DNA from: a virus
Direction: 5' to 3' (one strand)
UHGV virus genome: UHGV-0383210
DNA: 36,548 bases
Positions within the stretch are counted from its first letter, which is position 1. Every line of letters begins with the position of its first letter. Positions 11,370 through 16,870 of this stretch are shown in pieces. The notes under the pieces are model-generated. The model worked only from the letters and a program-made list of their open reading frames with translations, searched no databases and was not told where the DNA came from. Made by a program: the position numbers and the translations under genes.

Positions 11370-11973
11370 ACCAGCGCGAAGACGATGTAAAAACGATGAA
11401 TGTCGGGAATGGTTTCACCCTGCATTCGCTAATCAGTGGTGGTGCTCTCCAGAGTGTGGAACCAAGATAGCACTCGAACGACGAAGTAAAGAACGCGAAA
11501 AAGCGGAAAAAGCAGCAGAGAAGAAACGACGACGAGAGGAGCAGAAACAGAAAGATAAACTTAAGATTAGAAAACTCGCCTTAAAGCCCCGCAGTTACTG
11601 GATTAAACAAGCCCAACAAGCCGTAAACGCCTTCATCAGAGAAAGAGACCGCGACTTACCATGTATCTCTTGCGGAACGCTCACGTCTGCTCAGTGGGAT
11701 GCCGGACATTACCGGACAACTGCTGCGGCACCTCAACTCCGATTTGATGAACGCAATATTCACAAGCAATGCGTGGTGTGCAACCAGCACAAAAGCGGAA
11801 ATCTCGTTCCGTATCGCGTCGAACTGATTAGCCGCATCGGGCAGGAAGCAGTAGACGAAATCGAATCAAACCATAACCGCCATCGCTGGACTGTCGAAGA
11901 GTGCAGGGCCATCAAGGCGGAGTATCAGCAGAAACTCAAAGACCTGCGAAACAGCAGAAGTGAGGCCGCATGA
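11359..11973 (+). CDS. ninG: NinG (Rap) recombination endonuclease (204 aa)
   Basis: [56 protein letters not shown] matches recalled lambda NinG. Confidence 0.9.
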
Positions 11974-12016
11974 CGTTCTCAGTAAAAACCATTCCAGATC
12001 ACAAGGGAGAAGGCGC

Positions 12017-12505
12017 ATGGGCATAAGAGAACTAAACCTCACCAAAGAACAGCACGAGTGGCTGAATGGCTGGCTTGAACTGTGGGGCGCATGGGTTTAT
12101 TCAGGTCGTCTGGAAAAGCGCATGAGCAGCGTAATAGCTAAGTTCATGGAGAGCGTAGAGCCGGGAAGAGTTATGACAAGGCCAATGTGTAATGATGATG
12201 ATGGAATGTTGATTTCTCAGGTCGTCGATTCCGTCATGTACATTGACAAGAAAGCCTTTGGCATCCTCCTCAGCTACTACGCCCACGGCTCTTCCAAGCA
12301 CGCCATTGCATCTTACTATCATCGCGTCGCAAGACCTCGCAAGATGTTATGCCGGGGCGGCGGGCGCATTCAAAAACCATCGCTCGCAACCTGTCGACGG
12401 GAAGTTGACGAAATCCTCAATGCCTCGTTGTTTATGATTTACCCGGTTCTGGATAGTGCGTTTAAAAACCGGAAACGTGTAGAGAAAATTAAACATGTAG
12501 CATAG
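12017..12505 (+). CDS. Q: Late-gene antiterminator Q, not lambda Q type; size fits a phage-21-like Q (162 aa from ATG 12017)
   Basis: Position after nin and before tR' and lysis genes; strong SD AAGGGAGAAGG; no similarity to recalled lambda Q. Confidence 0.6.
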   Translation: MGIRELNLTKEQHEWLNGWLELWGAWVYSGRLEKRMSSVIAKFMESVEPGRVMTRPMCNDDDGMLISQVVDSVMYIDKKAFGILLSYYAHGSSKHAIASYYHRVARPRKMLCRGGGRIQKPSLATCRREVDEILNASLFMIYPVLDSAFKNRKRVEKIKHVA

Positions 12506-12511
12506 AACGTG

Positions 12512-12545
12512 TTGACATCATTGAGCAAATGAGCAACACTATTCG
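12512..12545 (+). promoter_or_regulatory. Putative late promoter pR' (TTGACA -35 at 12512-12517) with qut region
   Basis: Consensus -35 hexamer immediately after Q stop; -10 element not confidently placed. Confidence 0.35.
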
Positions 12546-12870: not shown

Positions 12871-13086
12871 ATGAAATCAATGGACAAAATCTCAACTGGC
12901 ATTGCCTACGGAACATCCGCTGGTAGTGCGGGATACTGGTTTTTGCAGTGGTTGGATCAGGTCAGTCCATCACAGTGGGCTGCGATTGGGGTGCTTGGAA
13001 GCCTTGTGTTGGGCTTTCTCACCTATCTGACAAATCTGTACTTCAAAATCAGAGAAGACAGAAGAAAGGCTGCGAGAGGTGAATAA
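12871..13086 (+). CDS. S: Pinholin, phage-21 S type, with dual-start motif (Met1 at 12871, Met4 at 12880)
   Basis: [71 protein letters not shown] matches recalled S21 pinholin. Confidence 0.9.
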
Positions 13087-13583
13087 TGCCTCCATCATTA
13101 CGAAAAGCCGTTGCTGCGGCTATTGGTGGCGGGGCTATTGCTATAGCATCTGTGTTAATCACTGGCCCAAGTGGTAACGATGGTCTGGAAGGCGTCAGCT
13201 ACATACCATATAAAGATATCGTTGGTGTATGGACTGTATGTTACGGGCATACCGGAAAAGACATTATGCTCGGTAAAACGTATACCGAAGCAGAATGCAA
13301 AGCCCTCCTGAATAAAGACCTTGCCACTGTCGCCAGACAAATTAACCCGTACATCAAAGTCGATATACCGGAAACAACGCGCGGCGCTCTTTACTCGTTC
13401 GTTTACAACGTTGGTGCTGGAAATTTCAGAACATCGACGCTTCTTCGCAAAATAAACCAGGGCGATATCAAAGGCGCATGTGATCAGCTACGGCGCTGGA
13501 CATACGCTGGCGGTAAGCAATGGAAAGGGCTGATGACTCGCCGTGAGATTGAGCGTGAAGTCTGTTTGTGGGGGCAACAATGA
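13086..13583 (+). CDS. R: SAR endolysin, phage-21 R type (T4-lysozyme-like with N-terminal signal-anchor-release domain)
   Basis: N-terminal [30 protein letters not shown] segment followed by lysozyme domain; matches recalled R21; ATAATG overlap with holin stop. Confidence 0.9.
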
Positions 13584-14017
13584 GTAGAGTAACCGTGATT
13601 ATCTCCGCTCTGGTTATCTGCATCATCGTCTGCCTGTCATGGGCTGTTAATCATTACCGTGATAACGCCATGACCTACAAAGAACAGCGCGATAAAGCCA
13701 CATCCATCATCGCTGATATGCAGAAGCGTCAACGTGATGTAGCAGAACTCGACGCAAGATATACAAAGGAACTTGCTGATGCTAACGCGACTATCGAAAG
13801 TCTCCGTGCTGATGTTTCTGCTGGGCGTAAGCGCCTGCAAGTCGCCGCCACCTGTGCAAAGTCAACGACCGGAGCCAGCAGCATGGGCGATGGAGAAAGC
13901 CCAAGACTTACAGCAGATGCTGAACTCAATTATTACCGTCTCCGAAGTGGAATCGACAGGATAACCGCGCAGGTTAACTACTTGCAGGAATACATCAGGA
14001 CGCAATGCCTTCGATGA
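13580..14017 (+). CDS. Rz: Rz i-spanin (ATG 13580 overlapping R stop; ORF-track start 13568 is GTG)
   Basis: N-terminal TM segment [20 protein letters not shown], coiled-coil body, position after endolysin. Confidence 0.8.
13779..13964 (+). CDS. Rz1: Rz1 o-spanin lipoprotein embedded in +1 frame of Rz
   Basis: [20 protein letters not shown] lipobox then proline-rich [14 protein letters not shown]; fully nested in Rz as in lambda. Confidence 0.75.
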
Positions 14018-14317
14018 TAGCGATAATTTTACTCATCATCCTTCACATCTGGCTCTGTAGACAGGGTGGTGATCACTTCTGGAGTGAATCCAGATTAAAC
14101 ATCTCATTGCTGATGCTTGAAGTTGAGCATCTGGCGCGCGGTAAGGGGCTGCGTTGAGATAAGAGCCAGTTCATTACAAAGCCTATCTACGGGTGGGCTT
14201 GATAATGAAACCGGAATTTATTCTGGGCAACCAGTTACGGCAGTACAGCGAAACAACCCAAGCCAGTAAGTGGGGAAATAACACTGGCAGCCACTGAAAG
14301 ATGAACCTCCAGCCTTA

Positions 14318-14756
<439 letters not shown>

Positions 14757-14792
14757 TACGGACTAATTGATGTATTGAATATTTCGAGCATA

Positions 14793-14813
14793 AATTGATG
14801 TGACACATCAATT
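14793..14813. promoter_or_regulatory. Perfect 10-1-10 palindrome AATTGATGTG-A-CACATCAATT, with an extra AATTGATGT half-site at 14765-14773; operator-like
   Basis: Read directly; lies 57 bp upstream of protease start codon. Confidence 0.6.
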
Positions 14814-14869
14814 ATTCTGGTGGATGAATTCATTATGATTTTTTCACACACCGGTATAGGAGCAAATCG

Positions 14870-15616
14870 ATGCATCAAACTCTAGCCAACGCAACTTTTC
14901 AGGTCATTGCAGGGGATTCTCGTGGTAGTGGGTTCAGCTTTATGCGAGAAGATCTGGTCGTAACCAATTTTCATGTTGTCGCCGCCTGCTGTAACTTGCA
15001 GAATCAGAATCTGCGTCAAATTAATCATGTAATCCTTCAGACTGAATCTAATGAGCATATAGAAGCTCAAATATTGTACATTGATGGTGACAACGACTTT
15101 GCGATTATGCGGTTGCAATCACCGCTTCCTGCCGGGAGAACAGTACTTCAACCATCCGTAGGATTTACTCCAACTCGAGGCAAAAAGTTAATCTTTGCCG
15201 GGTATCCGCATGGGCTGCCTCAATTGCTTACGAATGAAGGGATTATTTCCGCCCCTCTGGAAAGTGGGCGTTTTGCTCTTGATGGAATGGTTAATGGTGG
15301 AAATTCAGGCGGTCCAATTATTGACCGGGAAACGGGAGAAGCTGTAGGCATTGTTACTCAACGTCGATACATTCTGCCGCCTGATGCGCAGCAGCTCTCT
15401 AATGAAGTTGCTCAGCTTCGCGGCTATTTGGCGCAGGCAGCACAGCAAATGTCAGTGGAAGTCATGGGGGTTAACTTTGGACGAATGGCAGATATGTTCA
15501 GTCGCTCACTGCAAATGGTTAATGAAATGTTGAATCTTAATGCCAATCCTGGCATTGGGACTGGTTTCTCGTTAGAACCAATCGTAAATGCAGTTAATTC
15601 ACTTCCTCAACATTGA
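14870..15616 (+). CDS. Trypsin-like (S1/chymotrypsin-fold) serine protease, no signal peptide, about 85-aa C-terminal extension of unknown function
   Basis: Catalytic-triad motifs in order: TNFHVV (His), GDNDFAIM (Asp), GGNSGGPI (Ser); SD AGGAG 7 nt before ATG; N-terminus lacks a hydrophobic signal. Confidence 0.75.
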   Translation: MHQTLANATFQVIAGDSRGSGFSFMREDLVVTNFHVVAACCNLQNQNLRQINHVILQTESNEHIEAQILYIDGDNDFAIMRLQSPLPAGRTVLQPSVGFTPTRGKKLIFAGYPHGLPQLLTNEGIISAPLESGRFALDGMVNGGNSGGPIIDRETGEAVGIVTQRRYILPPDAQQLSNEVAQLRGYLAQAAQQMSVEVMGVNFGRMADMFSRSLQMVNEMLNLNANPGIGTGFSLEPIVNAVNSLPQH

Positions 15617-15645
15617 TCAAGCTGCGATTTAGTAAAAGACATAGG

Positions 15646-15673
15646 GCCACTGGCAAGTGCGAGTGGCTTTTCT
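15646..15673 (+). terminator. Putative terminator after protease gene
   Basis: GCCACT-10 nt loop-AGTGGC then TTTTCT. Confidence 0.4.
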
Positions 15674-15797
15674 ATTGCCGTCAAATGGGTAGCATCATTG
15701 TAATGGCTTTAACTTTAGGTGCAGAATTATGGTAAAACCGGACTTGGATTCCGTTGAATAAGAATGGTGACCATAACACAGAGTCACCACAGATTAT

Positions 15798-16163
15798 TTA
15801 TCCGCGCGCTTCGCGACCAGGCTCATCTTCATTAACGCGATAACGCCAATATCGCTCAGGCTTAACCCAAACCACTTTATCACCGCTTACTTTGCGGAAT
15901 TGGGTAATGACAGGTGTAGATAAAACAAGATTACCATCAGCATTTTCTTTCAGAAACTGCTCATTATCGAGTTTGACTAAATAATCAACTACGTCTTCCT
16001 GATACAGGCAACCGTCATATTCTAACTGAGCCATCATCCACTTCATCACGTCTGTAAGAGACAACTTGAGTGCGTTTGGGTTTACGGCTTTGGGTTGGTA
16101 GCAGTCAGTGATTCTTCTGGAAATCTGGCTCTTTCTTGCTTTCTTCCTGAAAACCACTGACAC
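15798..16163 (-). CDS. Hypothetical protein (121 aa as ORF; may start at internal Met 16046 giving 83 aa)
   Basis: ORF convergent with protease gene; N-terminal 82 nt overlap the upstream gene out of frame. Confidence 0.4.
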   Translation of the reverse strand: MSVVFRKKARKSQISRRITDCYQPKAVNPNALKLSLTDVMKWMMAQLEYDGCLYQEDVVDYLVKLDNEQFLKENADGNLVLSTPVITQFRKVSGDKVVWVKPERYWRYRVNEDEPGREARG

Positions 16164-16291
16164 CAGTAATCACCAACAAAAACATCAAAGCTGTTTATGA
16201 TTGGCTCCTGAATAGCCATCGCCGGGCCGCCTGAAACCAAATAAACAATGTCGCCGATTTTAAATTTAGGGGTACGTGGATTTTTTGACAT
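16082..16291 (-). CDS. Small protein of the YodC/DUF2158-like family (69 aa)
   Basis: KIGDIVYLVSGGPAMAI...YWCQWFSG fits the recalled GDxVxLxSGGPxM...CxWF pattern; SD AGGAAG 4 nt before ATG. Confidence 0.55.
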   Translation of the reverse strand: MSKNPRTPKFKIGDIVYLVSGGPAMAIQEPIINSFDVFVGDYWCQWFSGRKQERARFPEESLTATNPKP

Positions 16292-16318
16292 AAAGCTTCC
16301 TTTTTAAGAGAGAGATAC

Positions 16319-16870
16319 ATGGCACTCACCGACAAACAAGAAATGTTCTGTCGCGAGTACCTCATCGATTTAAACGCCACGCAAGCGGCTATTCGGGCGG
16401 GGTACAGCGCTAAGACAGCTAACCGTACCGCATCCGAAAACCTGTCAAAACCTGACATCAAGTTAAGAATCGCCGAACTGAAAGCGCAACGCAATGATCT
16501 TGTTGGTATTAATGCAGAATATGTGCTTAATCGCCTTATTGAAATCGACCAGATGGATGTGCTTGACATTCTCCTGCAAAACGGTGAGCTAAAACCCATT
16601 AAAGACTGGCCTAAGGTATGGCGCACAACGCTATCAGGAATGGATGTCATGGAGATGGTATCCGCAGATAGCGCCGCACTTCTGAAGAAAATCAAATGGC
16701 CTGATAAGGTTAAAAACCTTGAGTTGCTTGGGCGTCATGTTTCTGTTCAGGCGTTTAAAGACAACGTCAAAAATGAAGTGACTGGCGCTGATGGAGGACC
16801 AGTCAGAACAGAAATTACCAACTTAACGCCGGAGCAGGCTGCAGAGGCGTATAGAAAAATGATGGGCTAA
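16319..16870 (+). CDS. Terminase small subunit (183 aa)
   Basis: Immediately precedes large terminase; [30 protein letters not shown] resembles phage small terminase HTH N-termini. Confidence 0.7.

What the first reader, a model, noticed from the sequence alone, without database searches (positions are those of the whole stretch)
14763..14813. Operator-like perfect palindrome with extra half-site upstream of the protease gene
AATTGATGTG-A-CACATCAATT is a perfect 21-bp palindrome, and the half-site AATTGATGT recurs in direct orientation 28 bp upstream. It lies 57 bp before the protease start codon, where a promoter would overlap. This suggests the protease is under a dedicated dimeric DNA-binding regulator, possibly the 59-aa ORF just upstream or a host factor, rather than passively read through from the late operon.
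Basis: seen in the sequence. Interest (0 to 1): 0.45.

Follow-up and report, generated by a model that had tools for sequence, protein, structure and literature searches.

The report
Start-codon-masking RNA leader before prophage protease
The palindrome is real, but it most likely acts in the RNA: it is one hairpin of a conserved 113-base leader whose upstream "half-site" pairs with the start codon of a prophage cargo protease and so masks it, rather than a docking site for a DNA-binding repressor.

Summary
AATTGATGTG-A-CACATCAATT lies at 14793-14813, a third AATTGATGT lies at 14765-14773, and the ATG is at 14870.

The gene is not a head protease. It is an HtrA-like S1 peptidase carried with a 59-aa ORF as a cargo (moron) cassette just after the lysis genes of a P22-like/lambdoid prophage.

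The 111-113-nt spacer between the two genes is conserved in at least 22 variants, often better than either flanking gene. The motif TTGATG/CATCAA occurs four times in nested order. The fourth copy is the His-Gln codons right after the ATG.

Folded as RNA, the upstream half-site pairs with the start codon (12 bp, -13 kcal/mol). The palindrome and a third stem form inner hairpins. Nearly all variants predict this architecture. Unrelated leaders of homologous phage proteases also mask the AUG or the Shine-Dalgarno sequence.

The operator reading has little support:
- no conserved sigma-70 promoter
- no DNA-binding candidate; the 59-aa protein is acidic and matches no family
- no second site in the prophage
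- three lineages lose the DNA dyad but keep RNA pairing

A good promoter-like match exists only in this window's clade, with a predicted start at the palindrome centre. That leaves open gating of the phage T4 gene e type. Covariation is only suggestive, and nothing has been tested experimentally.

The parts
14577..14756 (+). 59-aa ORF, the first gene of the cassette. It encodes a small acidic protein of unknown function.
   Evidence: The ORF is intact in 20 of 22 variants. dN/dS against the window is 0.13-0.28 with dS 0.8-1.8. There is no Pfam, PHROG, PADLOC or NCBIfam hit. The AF2 model has pLDDT 66 and Foldseek finds nothing. In donor phages the ORF starts about 32 nt after the o-spanin stop.
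14757..14869 (+). Conserved 113-nt non-coding leader (spacer) between the two genes.
   Evidence: Its length is 111-113 nt in all variants. It is 62-85% identical to the window, often more conserved than the small ORF (61-76%) and the protease (58-91%). The + strand fold has z = -3.05, and 0 of 200 shuffles fold as well.
14767..14778 (+). The 'extra half-site' region UUGAUGUAUUGA. It forms the 5' strand of the outer helix (the anti-start strand) and is also the -35-like hexamer TTGATG of the candidate promoter.
   Evidence: It pairs with 14867-14878 in the MFE and centroid structures. The duplex energy is -13.3 kcal/mol. The pairing is kept in 92% of alignment cells. In L115/L116 it has decayed, and a new UGAUGCA copy at the small-ORF stop takes over the pairing.
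14793..14813 (.). The 21-bp palindrome, which forms inner hairpin 1 of the leader (8-9 bp stem).
   Evidence: Sequence confirmed. The hairpin folds at -7.4 kcal/mol. It is paired in 95.5% of alignment cells, with one G-C to A-U double change in L087. The central 5 nt vary.
14817..14854 (+). Inner hairpin 2: CUGGUG (14817-14822) pairs with CACCGG (14849-14854). It contains the 10-bp palindrome ATGAATTCAT (14825-14834).
   Evidence: Predicted. Two of its 6 pairs show changes on both sides that keep pairing, and 88.5% of cells are paired.
14858..14862 (+). Shine-Dalgarno sequence AGGAG, 7 nt before the ATG.
   Evidence: Read directly from the sequence. GGAG is conserved in 20 of 22 variants, and it is only partly paired (P unpaired about 0.35).
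14867..14878 (+). UCGAUGCAUCAA: the 3' strand of the outer helix. It holds the start codon (14870-14872) and the His-Gln codons, which are the fourth copy of the motif.
   Evidence: P(unpaired AUG) is 0.00 in the read-through RNA, against 0.35-0.38 when the 5' strand is absent. It is 0.02 or less in 16 of 22 variants.
14870..15616 (+). 248-aa S1 (Trypsin_2) HtrA/DegP-like peptidase. It has no PDZ domain, and by eye no N-terminal hydrophobic signal sequence (no predictor was run). It carries a conserved C-terminal helical extension.
   Evidence: Pfam PF13365 matches at 3e-20. His35, Asp76 and Ser146 are invariant in 22 homologues. The nearest solved structures are HtrA/Deg proteases. There are weak PADLOC hits to RT-Protease_XI and Avs1b.
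15645..15676 (+). Intrinsic terminator of the cassette: GGCCACT...AGTGGCT followed by TTTCTATT.
   Evidence: Seen (-15.4 kcal/mol). Most variants have terminators at the same place but with different sequences.
14767..14796 (+). Candidate sigma-70 promoter, good only in the window clade: -35 TTGATG (14767-14772), 18-bp spacer, -10 TAAATT (14791-14796), predicted start near 14803.
   Evidence: PWM score 11.1 bits, rank 7 of 365,170 position/spacer combinations on both strands of the window. In other variants the -10 reads TGAATT, TTAATT or TGGATT and scores 5-8. It is not reported by the tool's consensus scan.
14454..14544 (+). Remnant 3' end of the donor phage's o-spanin gene. It marks the left edge of the imported cassette.
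   Evidence: It aligns with the 3' end of an overlapped i-/o-spanin pair (lipobox IASC) in L006, L010 and others.

Best explanation
The palindrome and its extra half-site are parts of one cis-acting RNA element. This is a conserved 113-nt leader between a 59-aa ORF and an HtrA-like protease, in a cargo cassette that sits in the late operon of lambdoid prophages.

In any transcript that enters from upstream, the 'extra half-site' strand (14767-14778) pairs with UCGAUGCAUCAA (14867-14878). That is the AUG plus codons 2-3, and the pairing forms a 12-bp closing helix. The palindrome (14793-14813) and a second stem (14817-14854) fold as inner hairpins. They bring the two distant strands together in a three-way junction.

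The start codon is therefore masked and translation of the protease is held down. It is relieved only when the 5' strand is absent or displaced. That could happen in a transcript that starts inside the leader, or when a ribosome finishing the upstream ORF unwinds the strand.

Shown: the sequence anatomy, the conservation and the predicted folds. Inferred: that the fold forms in vivo and limits translation, and what relieves it.
For: 1. Four copies of TTGATG/CATCAA lie in nested order U, L, R, S within 112 nt, and the fourth is the His-Gln codons after the ATG. This density is reached in 2 of 500 shuffles.

2. The + strand fold is -31.9 kcal/mol with z = -3.05, and the AUG is fully paired.

3. 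The same three-helix architecture appears in the individual MFE folds of nearly all 22 variants. P(unpaired AUG) is 0.02 or less in 16 of 22.

4. On the alignment, 92.5% of cells are paired and 4 pairs change on both sides. Shuffles reach the observed values in 2/500 (cells paired) and 3/500 (covariation score).

5. In L115/L116 the original 5' strand has decayed, but a new UUGAUGCA copy at the small-ORF stop codon pairs with the start region.

6. L107, L115 and L116 have 3 DNA mismatches in the right arm, yet 7 of 8 RNA pairs survive through G-U pairs.

7. The + strand folds better than the - strand in 22 of 22 variants. Composition-corrected z averages -2.67 against -1.36.

8. The whole spacer, not just 21 bp, is conserved, with fixed length and 62-85% identity, while dS in the adjacent ORF is 0.8-1.8.

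9. Unrelated leaders of homologous phage-borne proteases also mask the start. L119/L120/L189, L122, L190 and L192 use a hairpin of about 45 nt with GGUGUAU/GUGUAUA opposite AUGCAC/AUGCAU, and L188 masks the SD. Ten leader types have median P(unpaired AUG) 0.03. Other + strand genes of the window have 0.52 (p = 2e-4) and distant chromosomal homologues 0.345 (p = 0.013).

10. Chromosomal homologues with the identical ATGCATCAA start are not masked (L016, L018).

11. The mechanism has a precedent in T4 genes e, soc, 49 and I-TevI (PMC3014915, PMC2988022).
Against: - Covariation is thin. The variants are closely related, and the tool itself warns that related sequences can beat the shuffles without any structure. 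RNAalifold gives only -6.6 kcal/mol for the consensus, with a -0.44 covariation term.
- Counting distinct variant types, G-U (12) and A-C (12) are equal, so that strand-asymmetry test fails.
- The total energy to open the ribosome-binding region (10-11 kcal/mol) is ordinary for this window (9.3 +/- 3.9). Only the AUG itself is unusually paired.
- The left arm of the palindrome is nearly invariant while the right arm drifts. A pure stem does not predict that.
- The role of the palindrome hairpin within the fold is not explained beyond junction geometry.
- No relieving signal is identified. In silico there is no melting between 20 and 45 C, and alternative conformers are 9-10 kcal/mol worse.
- All folds are predictions.
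Confidence: 0.55

Rival explanations
1. DNA operator. A dimeric DNA-binding protein, phage- or host-encoded, binds AATTGATG-N5-CATCAATT and the upstream half-site. It represses or activates a sigma-70 promoter for the protease that overlaps them.
For: - The site has dyad symmetry with a variable 5-bp centre, as in many operators.
- The left arm is invariant at 7 of 8 positions in 22 variants.
- In the window clade, TTGATG-18-TAAATT scores 11.1 bits (rank 7 of 365,170 position/spacer combinations). It places the start at the palindrome centre and the upstream half-site on the -35.
- L106 has a perfect TTGACA at that -35 position.
- The cassette has its own terminator, which suggests an autonomous transcription unit.
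Against: - The -10 is not conserved and lacks the key -11 A in most variants. The tool's scan finds no promoter in 13900-16400.
- No candidate regulator exists in the cassette. The 59-aa protein is acidic, has no DNA-binding domain and has no structural neighbours.
- The cassette sits in phages with different Q, repressor and lysis modules and in five genera. A regulator would therefore have to be a conserved host factor. From memory, the motif fits no known E. coli factor: FNR is TTGAT-N4-ATCAA and CRP is TGTGA-N6-TCACA.
- There is no second site in the window or the loci.
- The fourth motif copy lies on the start codon at a non-symmetric distance, and the start region forms a zero-spacer dyad, so the geometry is inconsistent for a single dimer.
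- L107, L115 and L116 lose half of the right half-site.
- It does not explain why the 44 nt downstream of the palindrome are conserved.
Confidence: 0.15
2. Translational coupling device. The same RNA fold exists, but its purpose is to make protease translation depend on translation of the 59-aa ORF. Ribosomes finishing the small ORF would unwind the 5' strand, so that the two proteins are always made together. The small protein might, for example, be an inhibitor or partner of the protease.
For: - The small ORF and the leader always travel together with a fixed spacing of 111-113 nt.
- The base of the extended helix begins 4 nt after the stop codon.
- In L115/L116 the relocated anti-start strand overlaps the small-ORF stop codon itself.
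Against: - In the window the bases that pair with the AUG (14773-14775) lie 17-19 nt past the stop. By the usual ribosome footprint (my knowledge), that is beyond the reach of a terminating ribosome.
- L010 and L014 have a disrupted small ORF but an intact leader and protease.
- The protease has its own strong SD.
Confidence: 0.15
3. No function. The repeats would be a by-product, for example a small duplication or inversion of the start region, carried along by linkage with the protease gene. The folds would simply follow from the repeats.
For: - The palindrome alone is not beyond chance (18% of shuffles).
- The variants are closely related, so shared features may be inherited.
- The G-U versus A-C test is null.
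Against: - The spacer is more conserved than flanking coding DNA whose synonymous sites are near saturation.
- Its length is fixed at 111-113 nt.
- The anti-start strand has been relocated in L115/L116.
- Unrelated leaders mask the start independently.
Confidence: 0.1

Closest known systems
Inhibitory leader helices of phage T4 genes e, soc, 49 and I-TevI (also segB, mobE), reviewed in PMC3014915 and PMC2988022
   Same: The SD and/or AUG of a potentially harmful gene is paired with an upstream complementary strand in long read-through transcripts of a polycistronic phage operon. In T4 a promoter lies in the DNA that encodes the 5' strand, so short transcripts are translatable. Here the only good promoter match has its -35 on the 5' strand and its start inside the leader.
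   Different: Here the host is a temperate lambdoid prophage. The helix is long-range: the strands are 100 nt apart and enclose two inner hairpins, rather than forming a simple local hairpin. The promoter match is sigma-70 type and good only in one clade. The logic would be inverted, with lysogen transcripts ON and late read-through OFF. Nothing has been measured.
Dyad-symmetric repressor operators overlapping promoters (lac O1, lambda OR/OL, P22 Mnt/Arc operators; from general knowledge)
   Same: An inverted repeat with a variable centre lies close to a -10/-35-like pair, and an additional half-site lies nearby.
   Different: No cognate protein, no conserved promoter and no second site were found. 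One motif copy lies on the start codon. The half-sites drift in a way that keeps RNA pairing.
Morons of lambdoid phages: promoter-gene-terminator cassettes inserted in the late operon, as described for HK97/HK022 (from general knowledge)
   Same: The cassette is inserted between the lysis and terminase genes and is present in a minority of related phages (1 of 5,426 complete E. coli genomes holds this version). It has lower G+C (0.34-0.46 against 0.50) and its own intrinsic terminator.
   Different: A conserved promoter is not evident. Control seems to be placed at translation initiation.
Translational coupling through long-range mRNA pairing (MS2 coat/replicase, E. coli atpHA; from general knowledge)
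   Same: A downstream start is masked by pairing with a distant upstream segment close to the end of the preceding ORF.
   Different: In the window the masking bases lie beyond the footprint of a terminating ribosome. Only the L115/L116 variants place the strand on the stop codon.

Membership tests
Repressor operator overlapping a sigma-70 promoter | Dyad symmetry of the site | tested here: met
   The window has a perfect 10+1+10 palindrome. The family consensus has 8-bp arms with a 5-bp variable centre.
Repressor operator overlapping a sigma-70 promoter | Both half-sites conserved as DNA sequence in homologous loci | tested here: inconclusive
   The left arm is nearly invariant. The right arm carries 1-3 mismatches in 9 of 22 variants; L107, L115 and L116 carry 3.
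Repressor operator overlapping a sigma-70 promoter | Overlap with a promoter that is present across homologues | tested here: inconclusive
   The window clade scores 11.1 bits with the start at the palindrome centre. The other variants score 5-8 bits, which is about the chance level for 112 nt. The consensus scan finds none.
Repressor operator overlapping a sigma-70 promoter | A cognate DNA-binding protein encoded nearby | tested here: not met
   The 59-aa ORF has no HTH, RHH or AbrB match even at E<=10, is acidic, gives an AF2 model of pLDDT 66 and has no Foldseek neighbour. DUF6953 and YodC are absent from the other loci.
Repressor operator overlapping a sigma-70 promoter | A host factor that recognises the site | not testable with these tools
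   No whole-genome motif scan of the host was possible. The comparison with FNR, CRP and LacI consensus sites is from memory only.
Repressor operator overlapping a sigma-70 promoter | Further sites elsewhere in the element (regulon) | tested here: not met
   TTGATG-N5-CATCAA with up to 2 mismatches gives only this site plus one chance-level hit in the window. There is exactly one site per homologous locus.
Start-codon/RBS-masking leader helix (T4 e / I-TevI type) | AUG and/or SD paired in the long transcript | tested here: met
   This is a prediction only. P(unpaired AUG) is 0.00-0.07 for RNAs starting at 14577 or 14757.
Start-codon/RBS-masking leader helix (T4 e / I-TevI type) | Structure kept in homologues, with compensatory change | tested here: inconclusive
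   Of alignment cells, 92.5% are paired and 4 pairs change on both sides. Shuffles reach the observed values in 2-3 of 500 (paired cells, covariation score) and 20-31 of 500 for the count measures. The architecture recurs in the individual folds. However, the G-U versus A-C count is 12:12 and the sequences are closely related.
Start-codon/RBS-masking leader helix (T4 e / I-TevI type) | A promoter placed so that short transcripts lack the 5' strand | tested here: inconclusive
   The promoter match has its -35 on the 5' strand and its start near 14803. An RNA from 14803 has P(unpaired AUG) 0.38 and needs 5.0 instead of 10.2 kcal/mol to open the RBS. The match is not conserved outside the window clade.
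Start-codon/RBS-masking leader helix (T4 e / I-TevI type) | Measured inhibition of translation | not testable with these tools
   This needs reporter fusions or toeprinting.
Intrinsic (Rho-independent) terminator | G+C-rich stem followed by a U-tract | tested here: not met
   The scan does not call it. The stem has only 2-3 G-C pairs and folds at -7.4 kcal/mol. The true terminator of the cassette is at 15645-15676.
Any described RNA family (Rfam 15) | Match to a covariance model | tested here: not met
   Only two chance-level hits (E of 6-8), both outside the leader.
Lambdoid moron cassette | Variable insertion in the late operon, deviant G+C and its own terminator | tested here: met
   The cassette lies after the lysis cassette in all 30 or so loci, which carry different lysis and terminase modules. 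G+C is 0.34-0.46 against 0.50 for the window. Terminators are present.
Lambdoid moron cassette | Own promoter | tested here: inconclusive
   See the promoter rows above. There is no room for a promoter between the donor o-spanin stop and the small ORF, a gap of about 32 nt.
Translational coupling by long-range pairing | Masking strand within reach of the ribosome that terminates on the upstream ORF | tested here: inconclusive
   In the window the partners of the AUG lie 17-19 nt after the stop. In L115/L116 the strand overlaps the stop codon.

The most novel reading that the evidence does not exclude
A temperate-phage version of the T4 gene e trick, with the logic inverted. The cargo cassette would be insulated from the flood of Q-antiterminated late transcription at the level of translation. 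Read-through RNAs carry the anti-start strand and are silent. A weak internal sigma-70 promoter has its -35 on that very strand and its start at the palindrome centre. It would give a short RNA lacking the strand, which is translatable and ends at the cassette's own terminator. A potentially toxic cytoplasmic HtrA-like protease would then be made at a low level in lysogens (plausibly as a defence or exclusion function) but not during the phage's own lytic growth. The palindrome would serve twice, as promoter-proximal DNA and as an RNA hairpin.
Probability: 0.2. Interest if true: 0.6.

Novelty: new member of a known kind. Interest (0 to 1): 0.4.

Why it matters
If the fold works as predicted, it gives a simple, testable cis-element. 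That element controls an uncharacterised but widespread cargo gene: a cytoplasmic HtrA-like protease that sits directly after the lysis cassette in many lambdoid prophages of Enterobacteriaceae.

It would also show that cargo genes inside a phage late operon can be gated at translation initiation rather than by a private repressor. That bears on how prophages keep harmful or defence-type genes quiet during their own lytic cycle.

Several unrelated leaders of the same protease family also mask the start. This suggests that tight control of this enzyme is under selection, which in turn hints at toxicity or precise timing.

For genome reading in general, it is a reminder that a perfect palindrome before a gene is not necessarily an operator.

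Tried and rejected
- Intrinsic terminator: rejected. The stem is A+U-rich, there is no proper U-tract, and the scan does not call it.
- Known RNA family: none in Rfam.
- The 59-aa ORF as an AbrB/MazE-like DNA binder. This was my own guess from the sequence pattern. It has no support from Pfam at E<=10, the AF2 model or Foldseek, and the protein is acidic.
- Class II activator geometry (site at -41.5 of a CATTAT/TATGAT -10): dropped. That -10 with its -35 scores only about 6 bits, and no such activator motif is known to me.
- RNA thermometer: the predicted AUG pairing does not change from 20 to 45 C.
- Two-state switch (U:R or L:S pairing): the alternatives are 9-10 kcal/mol worse.
- G-U versus A-C strand-asymmetry test: null, 12 against 12 variant types.
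- Palindrome significance alone: not significant, reached in 18% of shuffles.
- IS terminal repeat or recombination scar: the IS100 fragment lies 340 bp upstream (14363-14453) and is unrelated to the palindrome. The palindrome lies inside a block that is conserved in many phages.
- Search for the palindrome in viral contigs: it found only the same cassette plus one unrelated A+T-rich hit, L005.
- The genome-contig scan gave only one close relative (Buttiauxella), because the cassette is strain-specific.
- The metagenome scan with the small ORF added only two new leader variants.
- Literature search for the motif and for this protease in prophages: nothing relevant.
Full report
**1. The observation**

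- AATTGATGTG-A-CACATCAATT occupies 14793-14813.
- An exact direct copy of AATTGATGT lies at 14765-14773.
- A 59-aa ORF ends at 14756.
- The ATG of a 248-aa ORF is at 14870.

The three exact 9-mers are the only exact copies in the window.

A perfect palindrome with arms of 10 or more turns up somewhere in 18% of Markov shuffles of a window this size. The palindrome alone is therefore not remarkable. What is remarkable is the cluster. The core hexamer TTGATG/CATCAA occurs four times between 14767 and 14878. Only 2 of 500 shuffles reach that density.

**2. The setting**

The window is a P22-like/lambdoid prophage. Its gene order here is:
- Q antiterminator (11960-12505)
- tRNA-Asn and tRNA-Thr
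- holin, lysozyme and Rz (12871-14017)
- the 59-aa ORF and the protease
- two minus-strand genes (DUF6953, YodC)
- the small and large terminase subunits (16319 onward)

The 'protease' is an S1/Trypsin_2 peptidase whose nearest solved relatives are HtrA/Deg proteases. It has an intact His-Asp-Ser triad and no PDZ domain. By eye it has no N-terminal hydrophobic signal sequence (no predictor was run). It carries a conserved C-terminal extension. It is an accessory gene, not a capsid protease.

Only 1 of 5,426 complete E. coli genomes carries this version.

Related two-gene cassettes occur in prophages of E. coli, Citrobacter, Klebsiella, Enterobacter, Leclercia, Kluyvera, Pantoea, Cronobacter and Buttiauxella. 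They always lie directly after the lysis cassette and before the terminase or HNH genes, in the late-operon orientation. Those prophages carry quite different holin, endolysin, spanin, Q and terminase modules.

In the window the cassette arrived together with the last 90 bp of a foreign o-spanin gene (14454-14544). That remnant is joined to P22-like DNA through a 91-bp IS100 fragment. In the donor arrangement the small ORF starts about 32 nt after the o-spanin stop, which leaves no room for a promoter there.

**3. The spacer is a conserved unit**

I collected 22 distinct variants of the region between the small ORF and the protease (alignment A6). Three more turned up later.

The spacer is always 111-113 nt long. 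Its identity to the window is 62-85%. The small ORF is 61-76% identical at the nucleotide level (dS 0.8-1.8, dN/dS 0.13-0.28). The protease gene is 58-91% identical.

In several variants (L088, L108, L110, L112) the non-coding spacer is clearly better conserved than both neighbours. The whole spacer is therefore constrained, not only 21 bp of it.

Within the spacer the arms AATTGATG...CATCAATT are kept and the five central bases vary. The upstream half-site is usually (G/A)ATTGATG. The ATG is always followed by CAT CAA, or TAT CAA in one case.

**4. What the four repeats do when read as RNA**

The + strand of 14757-14885 folds at -31.9 kcal/mol, with z = -3.05 and no shuffle folding as well (0 of 200). 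The predicted structure has three helices:
- an outer helix, in which UUGAUGUAUUGA (14767-14778, the 'extra half-site') pairs with UCGAUGCAUCAA (14867-14878, the start codon and the next two codons)
- the palindrome as an inner hairpin
- a second inner hairpin, CUGGUG:CACCGG

The outer duplex alone is worth -13.3 kcal/mol. The probability that the AUG is unpaired is 0.00. It stays at 0.07 when the whole small ORF is included.

Folding each of the 22 variants on its own gives the same architecture in nearly all. P(unpaired AUG) is 0.02 or less in 16 of them.

On the alignment, 92.5% of cells pair and four pairs change on both sides while keeping the pair. Shuffles reach the observed paired fraction and covariation score only 2 and 3 times in 500. 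The tool warns that related sequences can do this without structure, so I treat it as suggestive.

Three further observations favour RNA over DNA.

- *Relocated strand.* L115 and L116 have lost complementarity in the original 5' strand. They have a new UUGAUGCA at the small-ORF stop codon that pairs with the start region.
- *Dyad lost, pairing kept.* L107, L115 and L116 carry CACTGATT in place of CATCAATT. That is three mismatches for a DNA half-site, but 7 of 8 RNA pairs remain through G-U pairs.
- *Strand preference.* The + strand folds better than the - strand in all 22 variants. Composition-corrected z-scores average -2.67 against -1.36.

**5. Independent leaders do the same thing**

Homologous phage-borne proteases with unrelated upstream DNA also mask their start.
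- L119, L120 and L189 use a compound hairpin of about 45 nt. In it GGUGUAU(GU) pairs with (AC)AUGCAUC or AUGCACC, and an inner stem pairs with the SD. Opening it costs up to 23 kcal/mol.
- L122, L190 and L192 use the same kind of hairpin, with GGUGUAU, GGUGUA or GUGUAUA as the anti-start strand.
- L188 masks the SD instead.
- L085 and L123 pair the AUG with other segments.

Across ten leader types the median P(unpaired AUG) is 0.03. For the other + strand genes of the window it is 0.52 (Mann-Whitney p = 2e-4). For distant chromosomal homologues it is 0.345 (p = 0.013). Some of those chromosomal homologues begin with the identical ATGCATCAA and are not masked.

This recurrence across unrelated sequences is the strongest argument that masking the start is a selected property of this gene in phages.

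**6. The operator reading tested**

*Promoter.* The tool's consensus scan finds no sigma-70 promoter in 13900-16400. With a position-weight scan I found one good match: TTGATG (14767-14772), an 18-bp spacer, then TAAATT (14791-14796). It scores 11.1 bits and ranks 7 of 365,170 position/spacer combinations on both strands of the window. That is comparable to the hit just downstream of Q at 12512, which from its position I take to be the late promoter pR'. It would start transcription at about 14803, the centre of the palindrome. However, the match depends on a G-to-A change specific to the window clade. The other 20 variants read TGAATT, TTAATT or TGGATT and score 5-8 bits, about what 112 nt of A+T-rich DNA gives by chance.

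*Regulator.* The 59-aa protein is a real gene under purifying selection. It is acidic, matches no family even at E<=10, gives a low-confidence helix plus beta-hairpin model and has no structural neighbour. The minus-strand genes next door are absent from other loci.

*Other sites.* The motif occurs once per locus and nowhere else in the window.

*Geometry.* A dimer does not explain a fourth copy on the start codon, the asymmetric distances, or the conservation of the 44 nt downstream of the palindrome.

I therefore rate a pure DNA operator at about 0.15.

**7. What remains open**

The cassette ends with a strong intrinsic terminator (15645-15676). Most variants have one at the same place with a different sequence. 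That is the hallmark of a moron-type cassette able to run on its own in a lysogen, and it argues that some promoter exists.

If the window-clade promoter is real, the short RNA would lack the 5' strand. Predicted P(unpaired AUG) rises to 0.38, and the cost of opening the ribosome site falls from 10.2 to 5.0 kcal/mol. This is the arrangement known from T4 genes e, soc, 49 and I-TevI. There, read-through RNAs are silent and RNAs from a promoter inside the DNA for the 5' strand are translated (PMC3014915, PMC2988022). I give this combined reading about 0.2.

A coupling function with the small ORF is also possible, at about 0.15. It fits the L115/L116 layout. It fits the window less well, where the masking bases lie 17-19 nt past the stop. 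Two variants also have a broken small ORF but an intact leader.

**8. Weak points**

- All structures are predictions.
- The variants are closely related.
- RNAalifold's consensus energy is weak, at -6.6 kcal/mol.
- Counting distinct variant types shows no excess of G-U over A-C (12 against 12).
- The total opening energy of the ribosome site is ordinary for this window. Only the AUG itself is unusually paired.
- The near-invariance of the left arm is not explained by a simple stem.
- No signal that would open the helix was found. There is no predicted thermal melting and no competitive alternative fold.

**9. Verdict**

The operator interpretation is mostly not supported. The best-supported reading is a conserved cis-acting leader RNA that masks the protease start codon. 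In that reading the palindrome is an internal hairpin and the 'extra half-site' is the anti-start strand.

In kind this is a known mechanism in a new place, and the element is absent from Rfam. I rate it as a new member of a known kind, of moderate interest.

Noticed in passing
window 14363-14453: A 91-bp fragment about 94% identical to the end of IS100kyp (IS21 family, istB end). It sits exactly at the joint between P22-like DNA (homology to about 14378) and the imported spanin remnant plus cassette. It looks like a scar of the event that brought the cassette in.
   Followed up: partly
window 14454-14544: An orphan 3' end of an o-spanin gene (…[29 protein letters not shown]). It is homologous to the overlapped i-/o-spanin pair that precedes the cassette in other prophages. 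The window already has its own Rz/Rz1 at 13568-14017.
   Followed up: yes
window 14567-14585: TTTTTTCAT-C-ATGAAAAAA, a perfect 9+1+9 palindrome centred on the start codon of the 59-aa ORF. It is the second-longest palindrome in the window. It is A/U-only and may be a composition effect of the Lys-Lys codons.
   Followed up: no
window 15645-15676, and the same position in L006, L014, L085, L087, L088, L097-L120: Strong intrinsic terminators lie 25-60 nt after the protease stop in most variants. Their stems have at least five different sequences, often followed by a shared TATTGCCATCAC. The terminator function appears to be conserved rather than the sequence.
   Followed up: partly
window 15798-16291, minus strand: A DUF6953 gene and a YodC/DUF2158 gene are inserted on the opposite strand between the protease terminator and the small terminase. 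They are absent from the other loci that carry the cassette, so this is a second, separate cargo insertion.
   Followed up: no
L119/L120/L189, L122, L190, L192 (-45 to +9 relative to the protease ATG): A second, unrelated leader type for the same protease family. It is a compound hairpin with GGUGUAU/GUGUAUA opposite the AUG and an inner stem opposite the SD. The inner-stem sequences differ between variants.
   Followed up: partly
L163 (about 1666-1710) and L175: In L163 the small ORF is followed by the first 40 nt or so of the leader and then by unrelated DNA, with the breakpoint just after the upstream half-site. L175 has a small-ORF relative with no leader or protease. The small ORF can therefore occur without the protease.
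   Followed up: no
L010/L011/L012 and L014 (small-ORF region): The 59-aa ORF is disrupted in the Citrobacter and Buttiauxella versions (an early TAA with a frameshift, or missing). The leader and the protease are intact.
   Followed up: partly
L012 805-1836, L085 2126-2809, and L006/L013/L085 downstream genes: The same lysis-to-terminase gap in related prophages holds AbiJ-like, DUF4145, PhageMetallopep and HNH genes. It behaves as a hot spot for cargo or defence-type genes.
   Followed up: no
window 14870-15616 compared with homologues: Protease sequences diverge to 50-60% amino-acid identity while the small ORF and the leader upstream stay at 70-85% nucleotide identity, and the first 90 nt of the protease stay at 72-97%. 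This pattern fits either recombination within the conserved 5' block or fast evolution of the protease body.
   Followed up: partly
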